DNA of 64,000 nucleotides from NCBI GenBank assembly GCA_000165345.1, contig CM000432.1, positions 576,001-640,000 of the forward strand, read 5' to 3'. A program made the translations under genes and the position numbers. Under the pieces are notes generated by a model that was not told the DNA's origin, did no database searches, and saw only the letters and a program-made list of their open reading frames with translations. Each line of letters opens with the position of its first letter. Position 1 is the first letter of the stretch. Of the stretch, positions 1 through 10,028 are shown piece after piece.

Positions 1-376
1 ATTTACTAGATTGGATGATTAATTGAGTAAAATTCATTTGATTTACATCTAATTCTTCATTTGATAGGTATGACTTTTCAGTGCTTATTAAACTATTTGC
101 TTGATCATTAGTTATTTGTTTCTTAAATTTGTGTTCTTTCGATCTATTTATAGATTCATTTATTCCTTCGTTAAATCCCCTATTTTTCTTTTTGAGTTTA
201 TTAAGACTTTTAATTGAATATATAGTATTGGACAAAGAAAAAATAAGTGAGTTTATACCTGCAGCAATTGAAAAATATTGTAGAAATTCATTTGGTGAAG
301 GTTGTTGTTCTCCAATTGAAAAACTAATAAAATGAACAATAATAACAAAGAATATTTTAAGATTTAGGAATTGCAT
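1..376 (-). CDS. secreted hypothetical protein, 5' part only (gene runs off the window start)
   Basis: Minus-strand frame is open from an ATG (forward 'cat' at 374-376) down to position 1 with no stop over about 125 codons, which is very unlikely by chance at this AT content. The N-terminus MQFLNLKIFFVIIVHFISFSIGEQ is a classical signal peptide. It is absent from the ORF track because no stop lies inside the window. Confidence 0.5.
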   Translation of the reverse strand, partial: MQFLNLKIFFVIIVHFISFSIGEQQPSPNEFLQYFSIAAGINSLIFSLSNTIYSIKSLNKLKKKNRGFNEGINESINRSKEHKFKKQITNDQANSLISTEKSYLSNEELDVNQMNFTQLIIQSSK

Positions 377-378
377 TT

Positions 379-942
379 ATGGAATTGAAAGGCAATTTTG
401 CGGTTTCTTATTTTTTTTTTCTATTTGTAAAAATGTTGATTGATTGTATTAAATACATTAAAAATAAGGATATTAATTATTCCGACAAGCAGATTTCGAG
501 AGAGCTTAAATTAGAAAGTATATACAATTCAAAGTTGAAATTATTATTGGGTTTGTACAAATTAGAAATAAGCAATATTGAGGATAGCTCAATTTATTTT
601 GGCCCTGTATCAACAAGCGTTTCAATAAAAAATTGTAAAAATTGCCTTATTGCAGTTGCATGTAGGCAAATAAGGATTCATGACTCAGATGGACTTAAGA
701 TCCGGTTATCTTGCTGCACGCAACCATTAATAGAAAACTGTTACAATATCACATTCGATATTCGTACAAAAAATAACGTAAATTTTTATGTAATATTCGA
801 AAACCATTTGCAGGAAATGGGTATACATAAATCAGAATTCCTAACAAAAGATAATTTCAAGGTATCCGACTTAAGTTGGTTAAAAATTCAAGATTCACCA
901 AATTGGAAATTTGGAAATGTTGATTTAGAAATAACTGAATAG
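379..942 (+). CDS. hypothetical protein (187 aa), no recognisable domain
   Basis: ATG at 379 followed by 187 stop-free codons in AT-rich DNA, with no family recognised. Its ATG lies 2 nt from the divergent ATG of the preceding minus-strand gene, so one of the two starts may be wrong. Confidence 0.3.
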   Translation: MELKGNFAVSYFFFLFVKMLIDCIKYIKNKDINYSDKQISRELKLESIYNSKLKLLLGLYKLEISNIEDSSIYFGPVSTSVSIKNCKNCLIAVACRQIRIHDSDGLKIRLSCCTQPLIENCYNITFDIRTKNNVNFYVIFENHLQEMGIHKSEFLTKDNFKVSDLSWLKIQDSPNWKFGNVDLEITE

Positions 943-981
943 AAAAGAATATTCAACAAAAAATAAATTTTAGATTATATC

Positions 982-1881
982 TTATTTTTTTCTTAATTGG
1001 GTCTGTCTAAGTCCAAAGTCTTTATTAATTAAAAGTTTAGGTAAATTTTCTTCTTCGCATTCAATTCTTAAAAACACTTGATTCTTATTTAGAATTCCTT
1101 GTTTATTATCGTGCATTGTCCCATTACAAGGCGATTTCACAGAAATCTTATTAGAGGTTGAACGCATATCATCGACAATCGAAAGTAATACTTTTTCGGA
1201 TATGTTATTTTCCGAAAAAAAGTTCATCACTAAGAGTTCTTCTACCTTAGAAAAACATGTCCAATAAACTTGTTTCTTTTTGTAATTAATCGATGATCCT
1301 TCCTTCGCAAATGTGGGAGAATCAAATCTGCATTCATATGGCCTTTTTCCAAACGGAATCCCAGATCCAAGGGATAAATAGTCAATTTGAGGCGGATGAC
1401 TCTTTGATTTTTCAGGTTTTGTCTGAGGGATTGGAGTTTGTTGCTTGACTACTTCAATACAAGAAAAAATAATAAATGGTTGCAAAAGCATCAACTTCGT
1501 ATTTGGTTGCGAAGATAAAAGAATTTTTGCTTTCTTACAAGATGATATGATTATTGGTTCCAAACTTGATCCATAAAGCCCGGATAAAATTTCTGATTTA
1601 GGTAATACGAGACTAATTCCGTGAGCATTATTTGACAAATCAATAATTGAGTCATGTTGATCAAACTTAAATTCAGCGCCTTTAACTAAAGAAATACAAA
1701 CAATACTAACATCCTCTTGATTATATTCGTGAACATTTATCGGAGTAATTGAACGAGAAAGAGCGGACATTCGCGGTAATTTTCCTAACAACGAGTAGCA
1801 ACCGTATGAAGAAAGAACCCTTGAAGACTCAATAAACGCAGAGTTTATTACAAAAGCAAAGACTAAAAACCATAACTTCAT
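982..1881 (-). CDS. secreted hypothetical protein (about 299 aa)
   Basis: The track ORF 982..1893 begins at a TTG; the first ATG is at 1881 (forward 'cat' 1879-1881). MKLWFLVFAFVINSAFIESS is a signal peptide and the rest is Ser/Ile/Lys-rich low complexity. Confidence 0.55.
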   Translation of the reverse strand: MKLWFLVFAFVINSAFIESSRVLSSYGCYSLLGKLPRMSALSRSITPINVHEYNQEDVSIVCISLVKGAEFKFDQHDSIIDLSNNAHGISLVLPKSEILSGLYGSSLEPIIISSCKKAKILLSSQPNTKLMLLQPFIIFSCIEVVKQQTPIPQTKPEKSKSHPPQIDYLSLGSGIPFGKRPYECRFDSPTFAKEGSSINYKKKQVYWTCFSKVEELLVMNFFSENNISEKVLLSIVDDMRSTSNKISVKSPCNGTMHDNKQGILNKNQVFLRIECEEENLPKLLINKDFGLRQTQLRKK

Positions 1882-7624: not shown

Positions 7625-7954
7625 TAAAACTATGAACCTCATGGCAAATACAAATAAGTTCAAATGATATTCATTTTTTTTAAATTTATCAAGAAAAATA
7701 TTTTATTAGACTTTAAAATATTAAATTTATCTCAGTAATTAAATGCGCAAAGGCGATGAAATTACTTTATTTTGTAAGATTCTAATCTATTTATCTCCTT
7801 ACTCAGGCGAAGATATATATCTAACATCAAAATTACCAGGCTCATTTATTGTGATAAGCTACTACTGGATTCACCCAATATTTCACCAATTAATTGTCTA
7901 TCAGCACCAGCCATATGGTTCGTACCAACAAGATAAGGCATATTATTTTTTTTA

Positions 7955-9103
7955 CTAAGATGGTTTGTATGGGTTGCTATTTTTTGCTGATCTATTATGC
8001 TTACTTAATATCAATTGTTTGTTACCGTATCCAGAACTTGCTCTTGGACTATTTTTACCAGAAGTTCTCTTAGATTGTCTTGCAAAAAATTCTTCCAACT
8101 CCAATTCTGCTCCTGGAGGTAGTTTTCTGGGAGTTTTCTCTCCATTAAGACAATTACTTGTATGGACATTATCTTCAATATCGGGGATTTTCAAATGTTC
8201 AAATAGGCTTCGTGAAGAAGCAGTACTATTTTTTAAATCGTTGTTAGTATCTAGATTATTGTCTTCAAAGTCTAAATCCGGACTTTTATTCGGTGGCGGA
8301 GGAATTACTAGATCAACCGAATTTGAACTTAGCTTTTTCTCTTTAAGTAGGCCTTGCTCTTGTTTAATGCTATCAATCACTCCTTTTACGAAGTCTTCTT
8401 GGATAACTAACTTTTTCTTTCCTTTAATTTGTTTTGAATCTAACTCATTTATTTTACTTTCTTCTTTATTTATTCTAGTTTTTTCAGCATTTGATATCAA
8501 TCCCTCTAAAGCACGCCTTAAGTCATTATTATGTTTATTTTGCACTATAGAAATATGTGACAGTTGGGATCTCGCATTTACAAATTGATTGCGATTTACA
8601 GAAAAAGAAAATTTACTGCTCTGAATTATTAGCCTTTCTCCTATTGACAAATGATGAGGATTCATGCAAATGAATCTTAATTGGCCACTCGTTTCTTTTC
8701 CAAAAATTGATCTATACGTTAACCTTTGCAGAGAAGGGGCAGGCCTTTGAATTAATTTATTCACTCCTCCAAGCTCGTTGAATTCCCTCAATGCATATAC
8801 TTCACCCAAACTAAGAATCTGAAAATTTGCTGTTCTATTAATTTTTTTGAGTGATTCCTTGCTATTTTCTAGAGCATTTGACACAGAACTTGCTTTTTCA
8901 ATTTTATTATATTTATTAGATTGACCTATTTTTGCAGCTTTCGCCTCAAATATTTTGTCTTTGTTATTCTCAAAATCTTCACATTGAATGAAGTCTATAG
9001 AAATTAATAATAATAGTAGCAATAATAAAGGAAATATCATTACATTTATATTCACATAAAATAACAAAAAATTTAATGAAATAACAATTATAGATTTAAA
9101 CAT
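7955..9103 (-). CDS. secreted hypothetical protein (about 380 aa)
   Basis: The track ORF starts at a TTG (9121). In-frame ATGs lie at 9103 and 9040; the latter gives MIFPLLLLLLLLISIDFIQCE, a textbook signal peptide. Charged Lys/Glu/Ser-rich body and a PPPP stretch. Confidence 0.5.
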   Translation of the reverse strand: MFKSIIVISLNFLLFYVNINVMIFPLLLLLLLLISIDFIQCEDFENNKDKIFEAKAAKIGQSNKYNKIEKASSVSNALENSKESLKKINRTANFQILSLGEVYALREFNELGGVNKLIQRPAPSLQRLTYRSIFGKETSGQLRFICMNPHHLSIGERLIIQSSKFSFSVNRNQFVNARSQLSHISIVQNKHNNDLRRALEGLISNAEKTRINKEESKINELDSKQIKGKKKLVIQEDFVKGVIDSIKQEQGLLKEKKLSSNSVDLVIPPPPNKSPDLDFEDNNLDTNNDLKNSTASSRSLFEHLKIPDIEDNVHTSNCLNGEKTPRKLPPGAELELEEFFARQSKRTSGKNSPRASSGYGNKQLILSKHNRSAKNSNPYKPS

Positions 9104-9203
9104 TAAACAATATGCCGCCAATAAATTATTTGGTAATTCTTAATATAATGAATTGGCAGTAAAACTTTTAATAATGCGCTAAATAGTTGATTATTGTTTT
9201 AGC

Positions 9204-10028
9204 TTACGAAGCACTGCGTTCTGATAAAATTTTGCTGAGAGATTCAGAAAACCCTGTTGAAGATTTACTAGAAACGGATTTCATCTTTGCCAATTCCTGA
9301 AGTTCTTCTCTAATAGTTTTTTTTGTTGCGTAACTATTATCGATAGTTTTGTTTTGAGAGCAAGGATTTATTTTTTCACCTGCATCTAGGACATTTGTGG
9401 AATTAAAAGTTGGATCAATCATTGAAGAGTTATTATCATCTCCGCTTGATATTAAAGAGTCCATTTTTGATCGTATCCCTTGTGAAATTGTTTTAGTATG
9501 GGTTTTGTTCTTGATCAATGTGTTTGAAATTGTATTACTTCTAAATACAGCGTTTTTTAAGCCATTATTTCGAGGGGAAAAAAATTTGTTAGTCAAGGTG
9601 CCCATATTTATTTGCTCACTATTATTTTTTTGATTAGGATTAGATATTTGACTAAATGTTTTGCTACGGATTATTAGATTATACAACTCAATATGTTTGA
9701 TCATTTGATCGGGATTGTTGCAAGGATCCGAGTGCCAAATTATACCATTAAGAGTGATACTCGTTAAAGGATTAATCTGTATACTTCTATTTTCTGTTGC
9801 AGAGTTCAAAGTTTTTAGATTTTTTAAAGCGATATTACACTTTTTCTTTGCCTGATCGCTTCTTTTAGTAAAAATAATTCTTTCAAATTTTAATAAGAGA
9901 GATATATTTTCATTAATAGAAGCAATAATTTCAGAATCCGACATTAACTGTCTTTTCTTTTCTGAGTAGGCATATGAAACGGTGCTTAGTAATAGCAGAA
10001 TTCGGAAAGATAATAACTTTATGTTCAT
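9204..10028 (-). CDS. secreted hypothetical protein (274 aa)
   Basis: ATG at 10026-10028 (forward 'cat'). Signal peptide MNIKLLSFRILLLLSTVSYAYS. Ser/Asn/Lys-rich. Confidence 0.55.
   Translation of the reverse strand: MNIKLLSFRILLLLSTVSYAYSEKKRQLMSDSEIIASINENISLLLKFERIIFTKRSDQAKKKCNIALKNLKTLNSATENRSIQINPLTSITLNGIIWHSDPCNNPDQMIKHIELYNLIIRSKTFSQISNPNQKNNSEQINMGTLTNKFFSPRNNGLKNAVFRSNTISNTLIKNKTHTKTISQGIRSKMDSLISSGDDNNSSMIDPTFNSTNVLDAGEKINPCSQNKTIDNSYATKKTIREELQELAKMKSVSSKSSTGFSESLSKILSERSAS

What the first reader, a model, noticed from the sequence alone, without database searches (positions are those of the whole stretch)
1..10028. 10-kb cluster of eight tandem genes for signal-peptide, low-complexity secreted/surface proteins with no recognisable family
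From the window start to 10028, every gene encodes a protein with a textbook N-terminal signal peptide; one (5757-6470) also has a C-terminal hydrophobic anchor, as in GPI-anchored proteins. The body of each is Ser/Asn/Lys/Ile-rich with many N-glycosylation sequons. The set is: partial <1-376, 982-1881, 2026-4560, 4799-5401, 5757-6470, 7121-7624, 7955-9103 and 9204-10028. None matches a family I recognise. The rest of the window is conserved housekeeping genes. This resembles the lineage-specific secreted-protein arrays of apicomplexan parasites, which are often subtelomeric and host-interaction related. It is the most plausible novel system in the window. Weak resemblance between 4799-5401 and the middle of 2026-4560 hints at paralogy.
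Basis: partly seen in the sequence, partly recalled or inferred. Interest (0 to 1): 0.7.

Follow-up and report, generated by a model that had tools for sequence, protein, structure and literature searches.

The report
Cryptosporidium chromosome-4 secreted-protein gene cluster
This stretch of Cryptosporidium parvum chromosome 4 holds a real but fairly ordinary run of mostly unrelated, genus-specific genes for secreted or membrane proteins, already annotated but uncharacterised, and it is not a subtelomeric, fast-evolving family array.

Summary
The window is Cryptosporidium parvum Iowa II chromosome 4, genes cgd4_2440 to cgd4_2520. All eight ORFs exist at the stated coordinates and all have signal-peptide-like N-termini: 8 of 9 genes here against about 3 of 21 in the rest of the window.

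Several details of the finding are wrong:
- The genes lie on mixed strands, so they are not tandem.
- A housekeeping tubulin-cofactor-C gene (379-942) sits among them.
- The Ser/Asn/Lys/Ile richness is the genome-wide composition.
- 5757-6470 is a type I membrane protein with an invariant cytosolic tail, not GPI-like.
- The locus lies about 326 kb from the nearest chromosome end.
- No two of the eight proteins are detectably related.

The block is conserved gene-for-gene in C. bovis and largely in C. muris. It is restricted to the genus and mostly under purifying selection; only cgd4_2510 has dN/dS near 0.75.

Two things are new here. cgd4_2470 has three conserved amphipathic helical-hairpin modules and a paralogue, cgd4_2430, just outside the window. 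In C. muris each large gene is followed by an 8-cysteine, cgd4_2460-like gene. Published mass spectrometry shows cgd4_2520 co-purifying with dense- and small-granule proteins.

Most likely these are cargo of invasive-stage secretory organelles. Function is untested.

The parts
2..376 (-). cgd4_2440: the N-terminal 125 of 195 aa, cut by the window edge. Signal peptide MQFLNLKIFFVIIVHFISFSIG. A conserved hydrophobic or amphipathic stretch (FLQYFSIAAGINSLIFSLSNTIYSIK) is followed by a variable Asn-rich tail.
433..942 (+). cgd4_2450, tubulin-specific chaperone C. This is a housekeeping gene interrupting the run and is not a member of the set. The ORF can start at 379 (187 aa); newer annotations use 433 (169 aa).
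   Evidence: Pfam TBCC 1.4e-23
982..1881 (-). cgd4_2460: 299 aa, a signal peptide plus a predicted beta-rich body. Eight cysteines are invariant across the genus (C28, C62, C115, C141, C184, C209, C252, C275). It is 49 % identical to the C. bovis protein and 32 % to the C. muris protein. C. muris also has a paralogue next to its cgd4_2430 orthologue.
2026..4560 (-). cgd4_2470: 844 aa, signal peptide, all-helical prediction, 22 N-glycosylation sequons and a short poly-Thr linker. It carries three conserved hairpin modules (listed separately) and is a paralogue of cgd4_2430, which lies just outside the window.
3436..3669 (-). cgd4_2470 module 1 (aa 298-375): WY, helix A, a G-x-S-P turn, helix B, then a basic RRKSNSNLIRVLR stretch. 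This is the most hydrophobic of the three hairpins.
2656..2901 (-). cgd4_2470 module 2 (aa 554-635): KWYDGLIQFSKK, helix A with D/E, an NSPQAE turn, helix B with R/K, then SNRKLIGVTRVIPE. It is almost invariant across nine species.
2125..2334 (-). cgd4_2470 module 3 (aa 743-812): SWMEKVG, an amphipathic helix, a GN turn, an amphipathic helix, then KNKSTQRLLIQAIEEC. This is the most amphipathic of the three.
4799..5401 (-). cgd4_2480: 200 aa, signal peptide. It has a conserved core (ERPVLLNTIPHT..LFVNSSGLFTNITV.LTSTVPI..VSPENDSIHRILS) and 8 sequons. Orthologues are clear as far as C. bovis; in C. muris the match is positional only.
5757..6470 (+). cgd4_2490: 237 aa, a type I membrane protein. 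It has a signal peptide, an ectodomain with 3 invariant and 1 nearly invariant cysteines, a transmembrane segment at aa 174-207 (nt 6276-6377), and a nearly invariant cytosolic tail FEIIEYLRFKADMKDPLIIGGEIRTIS (nt 6378-6467).
7121..7624 (+). cgd4_2500: 167 aa, signal peptide. The N-terminal half is conserved (AFNPIGNIIMSSIGFFNPLLRVFKSFYS...HLGYEHLQSASN) and the C-terminus is sequon-rich and variable. A 2-bp deletion specific to C. parvum among the species compared truncates the protein by 15 aa.
7955..9040 (-). cgd4_2510: 361 aa; the ORF extends to 9103. It has a signal peptide, is Lys/Ser/Asn-rich and is the only fast-evolving member. The motif LPPGAE.ELEEF is conserved. A 2-bp deletion in C. 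parvum truncates the protein by about 37 aa.
9204..10028 (-). cgd4_2520: 274 aa, signal peptide. The motif [KR][KR]QLMS[DS]SEI is conserved directly after the signal peptide, and the N-terminal domain is conserved with 2 Cys. The protein has been detected by mass spectrometry co-purifying with dense- and small-granule proteins.

Best explanation
The region is the mid-chromosome block cgd4_2440 to cgd4_2520 of Cryptosporidium parvum chromosome 4. With cgd4_2430 and cgd4_2420 just outside the window, 10 of 11 consecutive genes carry signal peptides. It is a heterologous cluster: mostly unrelated genes, found only in the genus Cryptosporidium, held in the same order across the genus.

SHOWN: all products enter the secretory pathway by a signal peptide.

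INFERRED: they are cargo or membrane components of the secretory organelles of the invasive stages (sporozoites and merozoites), or of the host-parasite interface, rather than one co-operating 'system'. Proposed roles by member:
- cgd4_2520 is a soluble granule-type protein that joins the DG8/SG4 interface complex.
- cgd4_2510 is a disordered, fast-evolving secreted protein.
- cgd4_2490 is a type I membrane protein whose invariant cytosolic tail binds a conserved parasite partner, possibly through a sorting signal of the Y-x-x-hydrophobic type (EYLRF).
- cgd4_2470 and its paralogue cgd4_2430 are secreted proteins with three amphipathic helical hairpins. These could keep the protein soluble during transport and then dip into a target membrane.
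- cgd4_2460 is an 8-cysteine, predicted beta-rich protein that may partner cgd4_2470, because in C. muris the two gene types sit side by side at both copies.
For: - Identity: exact matches to C. parvum Iowa II proteins.
- Signal peptides: 8 of 9 genes against about 3 of 21 elsewhere in the window, Fisher p = 2e-4. A run of at least 10 of 11 has an expected genome-wide count of about 0.004 if 20 % of genes have signal peptides.
- Genus restriction: only Cryptosporidium hits for cgd4_2470, cgd4_2460 and cgd4_2490, including an HMM scan of 1.84e9 representatives.
- Synteny: gene-for-gene in C. hominis, C. meleagridis, C. ubiquitum and C. bovis. In C. muris cgd4_2490, 2470, 2460, TBCC and 2430 are retained by sequence, 2480 and 2440 by position only, and the neighbouring Sushi/Ank gene (position of cgd4_2420) by its Pfam domains only.
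- Heterologous make-up: no pair among the eight is related. The only related pair in the neighbourhood is 2470/2430 (hhalign probability 98.5 %, E = 1.5e-15).
- Selection: dN/dS 0.07-0.42 for all except cgd4_2510, which gives 0.74, 0.75 and 0.47. The literature value is 0.92, among the 20 highest genome-wide (PMC6532270).
- Expression: cgd4_2460, 2470, 2480 and 2520 are 1.9-4.3 log2 higher in sorted asexual stages than in females in vitro. cgd4_2440, 2460, 2510 and 2520 are 3-5 log2 higher in sporozoites than at 24 or 48 h (PMC6877471 supplements).
- Protein evidence: cgd4_2520 was enriched in an anti-DG8 immunoprecipitation (log2FC 4.67, p = 0.019) and in a GFP-DG8 pull-down (3.01, p = 0.08), alongside DG3, DG5, SG3, SG4 and CP2 (PMC13241007 S1 Table).
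- Hairpins: an internal triplication is supported by hhalign (1.5e-5, 1.4e-4 and 7e-3). The helices have hydrophobic moments of 0.3-0.6, against 0.07 for the true transmembrane segment of cgd4_2490. Acidic residues are conserved in helix A and basic residues in helix B of modules 1 and 2.
- Precedent: heterologous clusters of signal-peptide genes are a described feature of this genome (PMC8687662).
Against: - No localisation data exist for seven of the eight proteins. The hyperLOPIT spatial proteome and the single-cell atlas could not be read.
- The sporozoite enrichment is shared by the housekeeping neighbours TBCC and RPT3, so it does not discriminate.
- The cgd4_2520 co-purification rests on 2-3 peptides in a long list of enriched proteins.
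- Strong purifying selection and near-zero polymorphism within C. parvum (8 SNPs in 11.9 kb) would fit parasite-internal roles equally well.
- AlphaFold2 failed on both proteins tried (pLDDT 33 and 37), so no fold supports any function.
- Signal peptides were judged by a hydrophobicity heuristic plus database names, not by SignalP.
- No shared upstream motif was found.
Confidence: 0.6

Rival explanations
1. The block is what remains of an old tandem or segmental duplication array. Its members would have diverged beyond recognition, which is the first reader's paralogous-array idea pushed back in time.
For: Part of the neighbourhood really is duplicated. cgd4_2470 and cgd4_2430 are paralogues. 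In C. muris each of them is followed, on the same strand, by a cgd4_2460-like gene: cm280, and cm288 at L004 21536-22402 (E = 7.7e-10 to cgd4_2460). Small signal-peptide genes (cgd4_2480, cgd4_2440) precede each large gene on the same strand.
Against: Profile-profile comparison of orthologue alignments finds nothing between 2480 and 2440 beyond the signal peptide (E = 0.09). Nothing was found between any other pair. The proteins differ in length, cysteine pattern, predicted secondary structure and topology. An unrelated housekeeping gene, TBCC, sits between the two cassettes in every species examined.
Confidence: 0.15
2. These are parasite-internal, constitutive proteins of the endomembrane system or surface, such as organelle biogenesis factors or structural membrane proteins. 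On this view they are not host-directed, and the clustering has no functional meaning.
For: - Selection is purifying at a level similar to neighbouring housekeeping genes.
- Synteny and single-copy status hold across the genus.
- The cytosolic tail of cgd4_2490 is nearly invariant, which implies a conserved parasite-side partner.
- Polymorphism within C. parvum is very low.
- The hairpin modules of cgd4_2470 are almost invariant.
Against: - cgd4_2520 co-purifies with secreted dense- and small-granule proteins of the host interface.
- cgd4_2510 evolves nearly neutrally and carries a species-specific truncation.
- Transcripts are stage-biased, higher in asexual stages than in females.
- The proteins have no homologues in other apicomplexans, which would be unusual for core endomembrane machinery.
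Confidence: 0.22
3. The run of signal-peptide ORFs is a chance product of AT-rich sequence, in which hydrophobic N-termini and spurious ORFs are common. On this view there would be no real gene cluster.
For: AT-rich codons favour Ile, Phe, Leu, Asn and Lys. The 187-aa reading of the TBCC ORF also shows a pseudo-hydrophobic N-terminus.
Against: - Every ORF has conserved orthologues with dN/dS well below 1.
- Transcripts are measured for cgd4_2440, 2460, 2470, 2480, 2510 and 2520.
- Peptides are detected for cgd4_2520.
- The enrichment over the rest of the same window is significant.
Confidence: 0.02

Closest known systems
Clusters of signal-peptide protein genes in C. parvum: the SKSR, MEDLE, FGLN, WYLE and GGC families and the 'heterologous clusters' noted by Abrahamsen 2004 and Dumaine 2021 (PMC8687662)
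   Same: Same organism. The products are Cryptosporidium-specific with N-terminal signal peptides, the genes lie next to each other, and they have no Pfam families. One member, cgd4_2510, has an elevated dN/dS like those families.
   Different: - The locus is mid-chromosome, about 326 kb from the nearer end, not telomere-proximal.
- Members are not paralogues of one another.
- None of the name-giving strings is present.
- The genes are single-copy and syntenic across the genus.
- Most are under purifying selection and show low polymorphism.
Dense-granule and small-granule proteins of Cryptosporidium (DG3, DG5, DG8, SG3, SG4, CP2) and the GRA proteins of Toxoplasma
   Same: These are small, lineage-restricted signal-peptide proteins without recognisable domains that are expressed in invasive stages. 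cgd4_2520 co-purifies with DG8, SG4, DG3, DG5 and CP2. Some Toxoplasma GRA proteins carry hydrophobic or amphipathic helices yet travel as soluble cargo before associating with vacuolar membranes (my own knowledge, not tested here). The same behaviour is proposed here for cgd4_2470.
   Different: No localisation exists for any member. No sequence similarity to any named DG, SG or GRA protein was found. No RRL or RxLxE/Q/D processing motif lies near any N-terminus; cgd4_2520 has only a looser, conserved KRQLMSD.
Chlamydia inclusion-membrane (Inc) proteins with a bilobed hydrophobic hairpin
   Same: cgd4_2470 and cgd4_2430 carry pairs of short hydrophobic helices joined by a tight turn, in a pathogen protein destined for export. 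The first hairpin of cgd4_2430 gives a weak hit to Pfam IncF (E = 0.01).
   Different: - The hit scores 16.6 bits against a gathering threshold of 27, so it reflects composition and shape, not homology.
- There are three hairpins rather than one.
- The helices are amphipathic and carry conserved charges.
- Export is through a eukaryotic signal peptide, not type III secretion.
- The protein is large (about 840 aa) with long helical linkers.
GPI-anchored apicomplexan surface proteins
   Same: An N-terminal signal peptide, a Cys-containing ectodomain and a hydrophobic segment near the C-terminus.
   Different: The hydrophobic segment is followed by a 30-residue charged tail that is nearly invariant from C. 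parvum to C. muris. A GPI signal is removed from the protein and would not be conserved in this way. The topology is type I transmembrane.

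Membership tests
GPI-anchored protein (for 5757-6470, cgd4_2490) | The hydrophobic stretch lies at the extreme C-terminus, after a short spacer and small omega-site residues, with no hydrophilic tail beyond it. 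| tested here: not met
   The hydrophobic segment covers aa 174-207 of 237. It is followed by EIIEYLRFKADMKDPLIIGGEIRTISSRDFSLESFSTA, which is nearly invariant in 10 sequences including C. muris. No dedicated GPI predictor was available.
Subtelomeric secreted-protein families of C. parvum (SKSR, MEDLE, FGLN, WYLE, GGC) | Presence of the short sequence each family is named after. The names were recalled from memory and searched as literal strings; a literal string search is a weak test. | tested here: not met
   A regular-expression search of all proteins from cgd4_2410 to cgd4_2530 found no occurrence of any of the five strings.
Subtelomeric secreted-protein families of C. parvum (SKSR, MEDLE, FGLN, WYLE, GGC) | Several paralogous copies in the array. 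| tested here: not met
   All-against-all BLASTP gives a best E of 0.19. hhalign on orthologue alignments gives probabilities of 1.5 % or less for every pair among the eight.
Subtelomeric secreted-protein families of C. parvum (SKSR, MEDLE, FGLN, WYLE, GGC) | Telomere-proximal location, with copy-number variation between species. | tested here: not met
   The locus lies at 757-780 kb of the 1.106-Mb C. hominis chromosome 4. It has one copy per species in the same order in six species. PMC6532270 Table 4 lists cgd4_2510 as not subtelomeric.
Secretory-pathway protein with a cleavable signal peptide | A short n-region, an uncharged h-region of about 8-15 residues, and small residues before the cleavage site, all within about 30 N-terminal residues. 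| tested here: met
   A hydrophobicity heuristic passes all eight ORFs. Source annotations and PMC6532270 agree for several. SignalP itself was not available.
PEXEL/TEXEL-type exported or ASP5-processed proteins | RxLxE/Q/D or RRLxx within a few tens of residues after the signal peptide. | tested here: not met
   There is no RRL in any member, and every RxLx[EQD] match lies far from the N-terminus. cgd4_2520 has a conserved [KR][KR]QLMS[DS] directly after its signal peptide. This loosely fits the 'basic, one or two residues, then Leu' rule used for MEDLE2. Whether it is processed is untested.
Apicomplexan 6-Cys (s48/45) or SRS surface-antigen domains (considered for cgd4_2460) | A match to the Pfam s48/45 or SRS models, or the corresponding beta-sandwich fold with its characteristic disulphides. 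| tested here: inconclusive
   No Pfam hit for any of 12 family members at E <= 1. No PDB sequence relative. The AlphaFold2 model is beta-rich but unusable at pLDDT 37. Eight invariant Cys lie in two groups of four.
Chlamydia Inc proteins (considered for cgd4_2470 and cgd4_2430) | A significant match to an Inc family model, and a single bilobed hydrophobic domain of two full-length transmembrane helices. | tested here: not met
   The IncF hit has E = 0.01 and 16.6 bits, below the gathering score of 27. Helix A is only 13-18 residues long, and the helices are amphipathic with hydrophobic moments of 0.3-0.6.
Cryptosporidium dense-granule or small-granule proteins | Localisation to dense or small granules in sporozoites or merozoites, with release to the host-parasite interface. 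| not testable with these tools
   The only indirect evidence is co-purification of cgd4_2520 with DG8 in two pull-downs. The hyperLOPIT dataset of Guerin 2023 is not held.

The most novel reading that the evidence does not exclude
cgd4_2470 and cgd4_2430 would define an undescribed, Cryptosporidium-only family of secreted 'triple-hairpin' proteins. They would travel as soluble cargo and, after discharge, insert their three amphipathic helical hairpins into the parasitophorous-vacuole or feeder-organelle membrane. There they would act as scaffold, pore or anchor of the host-parasite interface. An 8-cysteine partner encoded next door (cgd4_2460, and cm288 in C. muris) would act as a chaperone or co-receptor. 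This two-gene cassette would have been duplicated before the genus diversified.
Probability: 0.15. Interest if true: 0.6.

Novelty: new member of a known kind. Interest (0 to 1): 0.3.

Why it matters
Cryptosporidium is a leading cause of childhood diarrhoea. How it builds its unusual niche at the host cell surface is being worked out protein by protein from its secretory organelles. This block offers eight to ten genus-specific secretory proteins, conserved across the genus, that nobody has localised.

Four members have concrete handles:
- cgd4_2520 already co-purifies with the DG8/SG4 interface complex.
- cgd4_2470 and cgd4_2430 have an architecture that suggests membrane insertion after secretion.
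- cgd4_2490 has an invariant cytosolic tail.
- cgd4_2510 evolves almost neutrally and, together with its neighbour cgd4_2500, is truncated in C. parvum relative to C. hominis. This is one of the few coding differences between the two main human pathogens at this locus.

For the genome scan itself the lesson is a caution. A run of signal-peptide genes in this genome is a known, annotated kind of feature. Most of what made it look exotic (composition, a GPI-like anchor, a subtelomeric position, paralogy) does not survive checking.

Tried and rejected
1. Structure prediction. AlphaFold2 on cgd4_2470 (9-sequence alignment, pLDDT 33) and on cgd4_2460 (10 sequences, pLDDT 37) gave unusable models. 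I therefore did not run fold searches, whose matches would be meaningless.
2. Remote homology. Pfam on all members and on distant orthologues gave nothing above threshold. PDB profile searches with the cgd4_2470 and cgd4_2460 alignments gave nothing.
3. So is the idea that cgd4_2480 and cgd4_2440 form a third duplicated member of the cassette: E = 0.09, matching the signal peptide only.
4. Shared promoter motif. No GC-containing 6- to 8-mer occurs in 5 or more of the 7 upstream regions. Only scattered E2F-like GGCGG sites were seen.
5. Tandem repeats and low complexity. Only three trivial arrays were found.
6. Telomere repeat: none.
7. Literature.
   - Full-text search for all ten gene ids and for six CPATCC ids found only the cgd4_2510 dN/dS table.
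   - The Guerin 2023 hyperLOPIT paper and the Walzer 2024 atlas are not held.
   - The supplements of the CP2 and rhoptry-remodelling papers do not list these genes.
8. Sporozoite-enriched transcription as evidence for invasion function is rejected as non-discriminating, because TBCC and RPT3 show the same pattern.

Full report
IDENTITY OF THE REGION

The ten ORFs between 379 and 13011 are identical, residue for residue, to annotated proteins of Cryptosporidium parvum Iowa II chromosome 4. The finding therefore covers these genes:
- cgd4_2440 (partial, 2-376, - strand)
- cgd4_2460 (982-1881, -)
- cgd4_2470 (2026-4560, -)
- cgd4_2480 (4799-5401, -)
- cgd4_2490 (5757-6470, +)
- cgd4_2500 (7121-7624, +)
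- cgd4_2510 (7955-9103 or 7955-9040, -)
- cgd4_2520 (9204-10028, -)

All are labelled 'hypothetical', 'uncharacterized' or, in newer assemblies, 'putative signal peptide-containing protein'.

The window is 27-35 % G+C. Beyond 10 kb it carries housekeeping genes: RPT3, polyprenyl synthase, PI-PLC, an oxysterol-binding protein, a GDPD phosphodiesterase, an NAD-dependent sugar epimerase (listed as UDP-glucose 4-epimerase, cgd4_2600, in the PMC6877471 supplement), SAS-6, PDCD2, an ATR-like kinase, Bax inhibitor, a Sec7 GEF, a flavodoxin/FAD/NAD oxidoreductase, a P-type ATPase, Brix and WD40 proteins.

CHECKING THE OBSERVATION

All eight ORFs begin with a short uncharged hydrophobic run typical of a signal peptide. 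The same heuristic passes only about 3 of the 21 other genes in the window (Fisher p = 2e-4). The locus read beyond the window start shows that cgd4_2430 (837 aa) and cgd4_2420 (Sushi/ankyrin, annotated as extracellular) also start with signal peptides. That makes 10 of 11 consecutive genes. If 20 % of genes carry signal peptides, the expected number of such runs in about 3,900 genes is about 0.004. The clustering is therefore real.

Several descriptive points fail:
- The genes are on mixed strands, not tandem.
- A TBCC-domain tubulin cofactor C gene lies among them at 379/433-942 (Pfam E = 1.4e-23).
- The Ser/Asn/Lys/Ile bias is that of the whole proteome: S 12.1 vs 9.9 %, N 8.8 vs 8.3 %, K 7.9 vs 7.6 %, I 10.2 vs 10.1 %.
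- Low-complexity content is modest, and tandem repeats are trivial.
- N-glycosylation sequons are genuinely enriched: 2.35 vs 1.29 per 100 aa. In cgd4_2470, 2480 and 2500 they lie 2.5-3 standard deviations above shuffles. This fits luminal exposure.
- The 'GPI-like' protein cgd4_2490 has its hydrophobic segment at residues 174-207, followed by a 30-residue hydrophilic tail. That tail (FEIIEYLRFKADMKDPLIIGGEIRTIS...) is almost invariant from C. parvum to C. muris. It is a type I membrane protein with a functionally constrained cytosolic tail.

LOCATION, SYNTENY AND DISTRIBUTION

In the chromosome-level C. hominis assembly the locus lies at 757,481-780,018 of 1,105,975 bp, about 326 kb from the nearer end. 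There is no telomere repeat in the window. PMC6532270 independently lists cgd4_2510 as not subtelomeric.

The gene order from RPT3 through cgd4_2530, 2520, 2510, 2500, 2490, 2480, 2470, 2460, TBCC, 2440, 2430, 2420 and 2410 to L31e is the same in C. parvum, C. hominis, C. meleagridis and C. ubiquitum. C. meleagridis is the exception for one gene, because no cgd4_2440 gene is called there. The same order holds in C. bovis from RPT3 as far as 2410, followed by a terminal gene call with Vps35 and L31e hits. Each gene has a recognisable orthologue there at 21-57 % identity.

In C. muris, the deepest-branching species available to me:
- cgd4_2490 (40 %), 2470 (33 %), 2460 (32 %), TBCC and 2430 (34 %) are retained in place by sequence.
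- The Sushi/Ank gene at the position of cgd4_2420 is recognised there only by its Pfam domains; the cgd4_2420 protein query gave no significant sequence match.
- cgd4_2510 has a weak match (E = 3e-8).
- cgd4_2480 and cgd4_2440 are recognisable only by position.

Homologues outside Cryptosporidium were not found for cgd4_2470, cgd4_2460 or cgd4_2490. For cgd4_2470 this includes an HMM profile scan of 1.84 billion representatives, which returned four proteins: three identified as Cryptosporidium, and a fourth, 845-aa full-length hit that I did not look up.

PARALOGY

BLASTP all-against-all (best E = 0.19) and hhalign on orthologue alignments (probability 1.5 % or less) find no relationship between any two of the eight proteins.

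The only paralogy is elsewhere. cgd4_2470 is related to cgd4_2430, just outside the window (hhalign probability 98.5 %, E = 1.5e-15 over 272 columns; cross-species BLASTP down to 8e-16). In C. muris the cgd4_2430 orthologue is followed by a 288-aa gene (L004 21536-22402) that is a paralogue of cgd4_2460 (E = 7.7e-10) and shares all eight cysteines. So an old duplication copied a two-gene cassette: a large hairpin protein followed by an 8-Cys protein. The second small gene is absent at that position in C. parvum and C. bovis.

ANATOMY OF THE MORE INFORMATIVE MEMBERS

cgd4_2470 is predicted all-helical. It has three blocks that are nearly invariant across nine species. Each consists of:
- W-[YM] plus a few residues;
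- a 15-18 residue hydrophobic helix, carrying conserved Asp/Glu in modules 1 and 2;
- a tight turn (GFSPVG, GNSPQAE or KGNK);
- a 20-25 residue helix carrying conserved Arg/Lys;
- a basic stretch (RRKSNSNLIRVLR, SNRKLIGVTRVIPE or KNKSTQRLLIQAIEE).

The three blocks are related to one another (hhalign 1.5e-5, 1.4e-4 and 7e-3) and recur in cgd4_2430. Their helices are hydrophobic but strongly amphipathic, with hydrophobic moments of 0.3-0.6. The bona fide transmembrane helix of cgd4_2490 has 0.07. Helix A is too short to span a bilayer.

With a cleaved signal peptide, every long hydrophilic, sequon-rich segment would be luminal or extracellular, and each hairpin would dip into the membrane from that side. 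The basic residues flanking each hairpin would then lie on the non-cytosolic side, which is unusual for co-translationally inserted helices. My inference, not shown, is that the hairpins are shielded during transport and engage a membrane after secretion. The first hairpin of cgd4_2430 gives a sub-threshold hit to Chlamydia IncF (E = 0.01). I read that as analogy of shape only.

cgd4_2460 has eight invariant cysteines in two groups of four and a beta-rich prediction. No fold could be assigned.

SELECTION AND POLYMORPHISM

Nei-Gojobori dN/dS was computed for C. parvum against C. hominis, C. meleagridis and C. ubiquitum:

| Gene | dN/dS |
|---|---|
| cgd4_2440, 2460, 2470, 2480, 2490 | 0.07-0.29 |
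| cgd4_2500 | 0.19-0.42 |
| cgd4_2520 | 0.34-0.39 |
| cgd4_2510 | 0.74, 0.75, 0.47 |
| TBCC (control) | 0.20-0.32 |
| RPT3 (control) | 0.03-0.08 |

The cgd4_2510 values agree with the published 0.92 against chipmunk genotype I, which is among the 20 highest genome-wide. Two other C. parvum isolates differ from the window by 0 and by 9 positions in 11.9 kb. The block as a whole is conserved, not diversifying.

EXPERIMENTAL HINTS FROM THE LITERATURE

A full-text search for the gene ids found only the cgd4_2510 table.

In the supplements of Tandel et al. 2019 (PMC6877471), cgd4_2460, 2470, 2480 and 2520 are 1.9-4.3 log2 units higher in sorted asexual stages than in females in vitro. cgd4_2440, 2460, 2510 and 2520 are 3-5 log2 units higher in sporozoites than at 24 or 48 h; I verified the column headers. 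TBCC and RPT3 behave similarly, so this second result is weak.

The one piece of protein evidence is in the S1 Table of PMC13241007. cgd4_2520 is enriched in an anti-DG8 immunoprecipitation (log2FC 4.67, p = 0.019, 3 peptides) and in a GFP-DG8 pull-down (3.01, p = 0.08). It appears there alongside DG3, DG5, SG3, SG4 and CP2.

INTERPRETATION

The best-supported reading (confidence about 0.6) is a heterologous cluster of secretory-pathway genes, specific to the genus and fixed in synteny, whose products supply the invasive-stage organelles or the host-parasite interface. [quoted passage not shown] This instance is mid-chromosomal, single-copy and conserved, unlike the telomere-proximal polymorphic families.

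The rivals are:
- an ancient duplication array diverged beyond recognition (partly true for two gene pairs only; 0.15);
- constitutive parasite-internal membrane proteins (0.22);
- chance (refuted).

The most novel reading still open is that cgd4_2470 and cgd4_2430, with their 8-Cys neighbours, form a new family of post-secretory membrane-inserting interface proteins. I give it about 0.15.

VERDICT

Its embellishments do not hold, and the interpretation as a subtelomeric-like paralogous array or novel system is not supported. The genes are already annotated. What this work adds is:
- the synteny and selection picture;
- the triple-hairpin architecture and the duplicated cassette;
- the corrected topology of cgd4_2490;
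- two C. parvum frameshift truncations.

Interest is modest (0.3). I class the finding as a new member of a known kind.

Noticed in passing
window 7600-7624 (3' end of cgd4_2500) and 7955-7962 (3' end of cgd4_2510): Both of these convergent genes carry a 2-bp deletion in C. parvum relative to C. hominis and C. meleagridis, and each deletion creates an early stop. cgd4_2500 is 167 aa against 182 aa; cgd4_2510 loses about 37 aa, including a conserved ...LGESSSSLSQ tail. For cgd4_2500, C. tyzzeri also has the 182-aa form. The now non-coding remnants are still almost identical to the C. hominis coding sequence, so the events are recent. The short forms recur in several independent C. parvum assemblies.
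   Followed up: partly
L002 12314-14827 (C. parvum cgd4_2430, about 2 kb beyond the window start) and L004 18507-22402 (C. muris): cgd4_2430 is a paralogue of cgd4_2470 with the same three hairpin modules. In C. muris it is followed by a 288-aa paralogue of cgd4_2460, which C. parvum and C. bovis lack at that position. This points to an old duplication of a two-gene cassette.
   Followed up: yes
window 6378-6467 (cytosolic tail of cgd4_2490): The 30-residue tail after the transmembrane segment is nearly invariant across the genus and contains EYLRF, a Y-x-x-hydrophobic pattern of the kind used as a sorting signal. This implies a conserved cytosolic binding partner.
   Followed up: no
window 9930-9965 (cgd4_2520, residues 23-34): The motif [KR][KR]QLMS[DS]SEI is conserved directly after the signal peptide in five species. 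It loosely fits the 'basic, one or two residues, then Leu' rule tested for MEDLE2 export processing. It is not a canonical PEXEL or TEXEL motif.
   Followed up: no
window 376-433: The start codons of cgd4_2440 (- strand, 376) and TBCC (+ strand, 379 or 433) are only 2-56 bp apart, an extremely compact divergent promoter. The 187-aa reading of TBCC adds a pseudo-hydrophobic N-terminus that newer annotations drop.
   Followed up: partly
window 10402-11094 (cgd4_2530): This Cryptosporidium-specific 230-aa protein has no signal peptide and has a single hydrophobic segment near its C-terminus (aa 175-196). It diverges quickly (57 % identity to C. ubiquitum, dN/dS 0.18-0.24) and shares a 373-bp divergent intergenic region with cgd4_2520. 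That region contains a G-run, GGGGATGGGGGGGGGC.
   Followed up: no
window 57533-60496: The strong purine skew at 58-60 kb (GC skew 0.22, AT skew 0.26) comes from a 987-aa Glu/Lys-rich, coiled-coil-like protein with no Pfam family.
   Followed up: partly
window 26366-27340, 27718-28554, 29068-30948: Three further ORFs of 278-626 aa in the 'housekeeping' part of the window have no Pfam family at E <= 1e-5. 29068-30948 has a hydrophobic stretch starting at residue 11.
   Followed up: no
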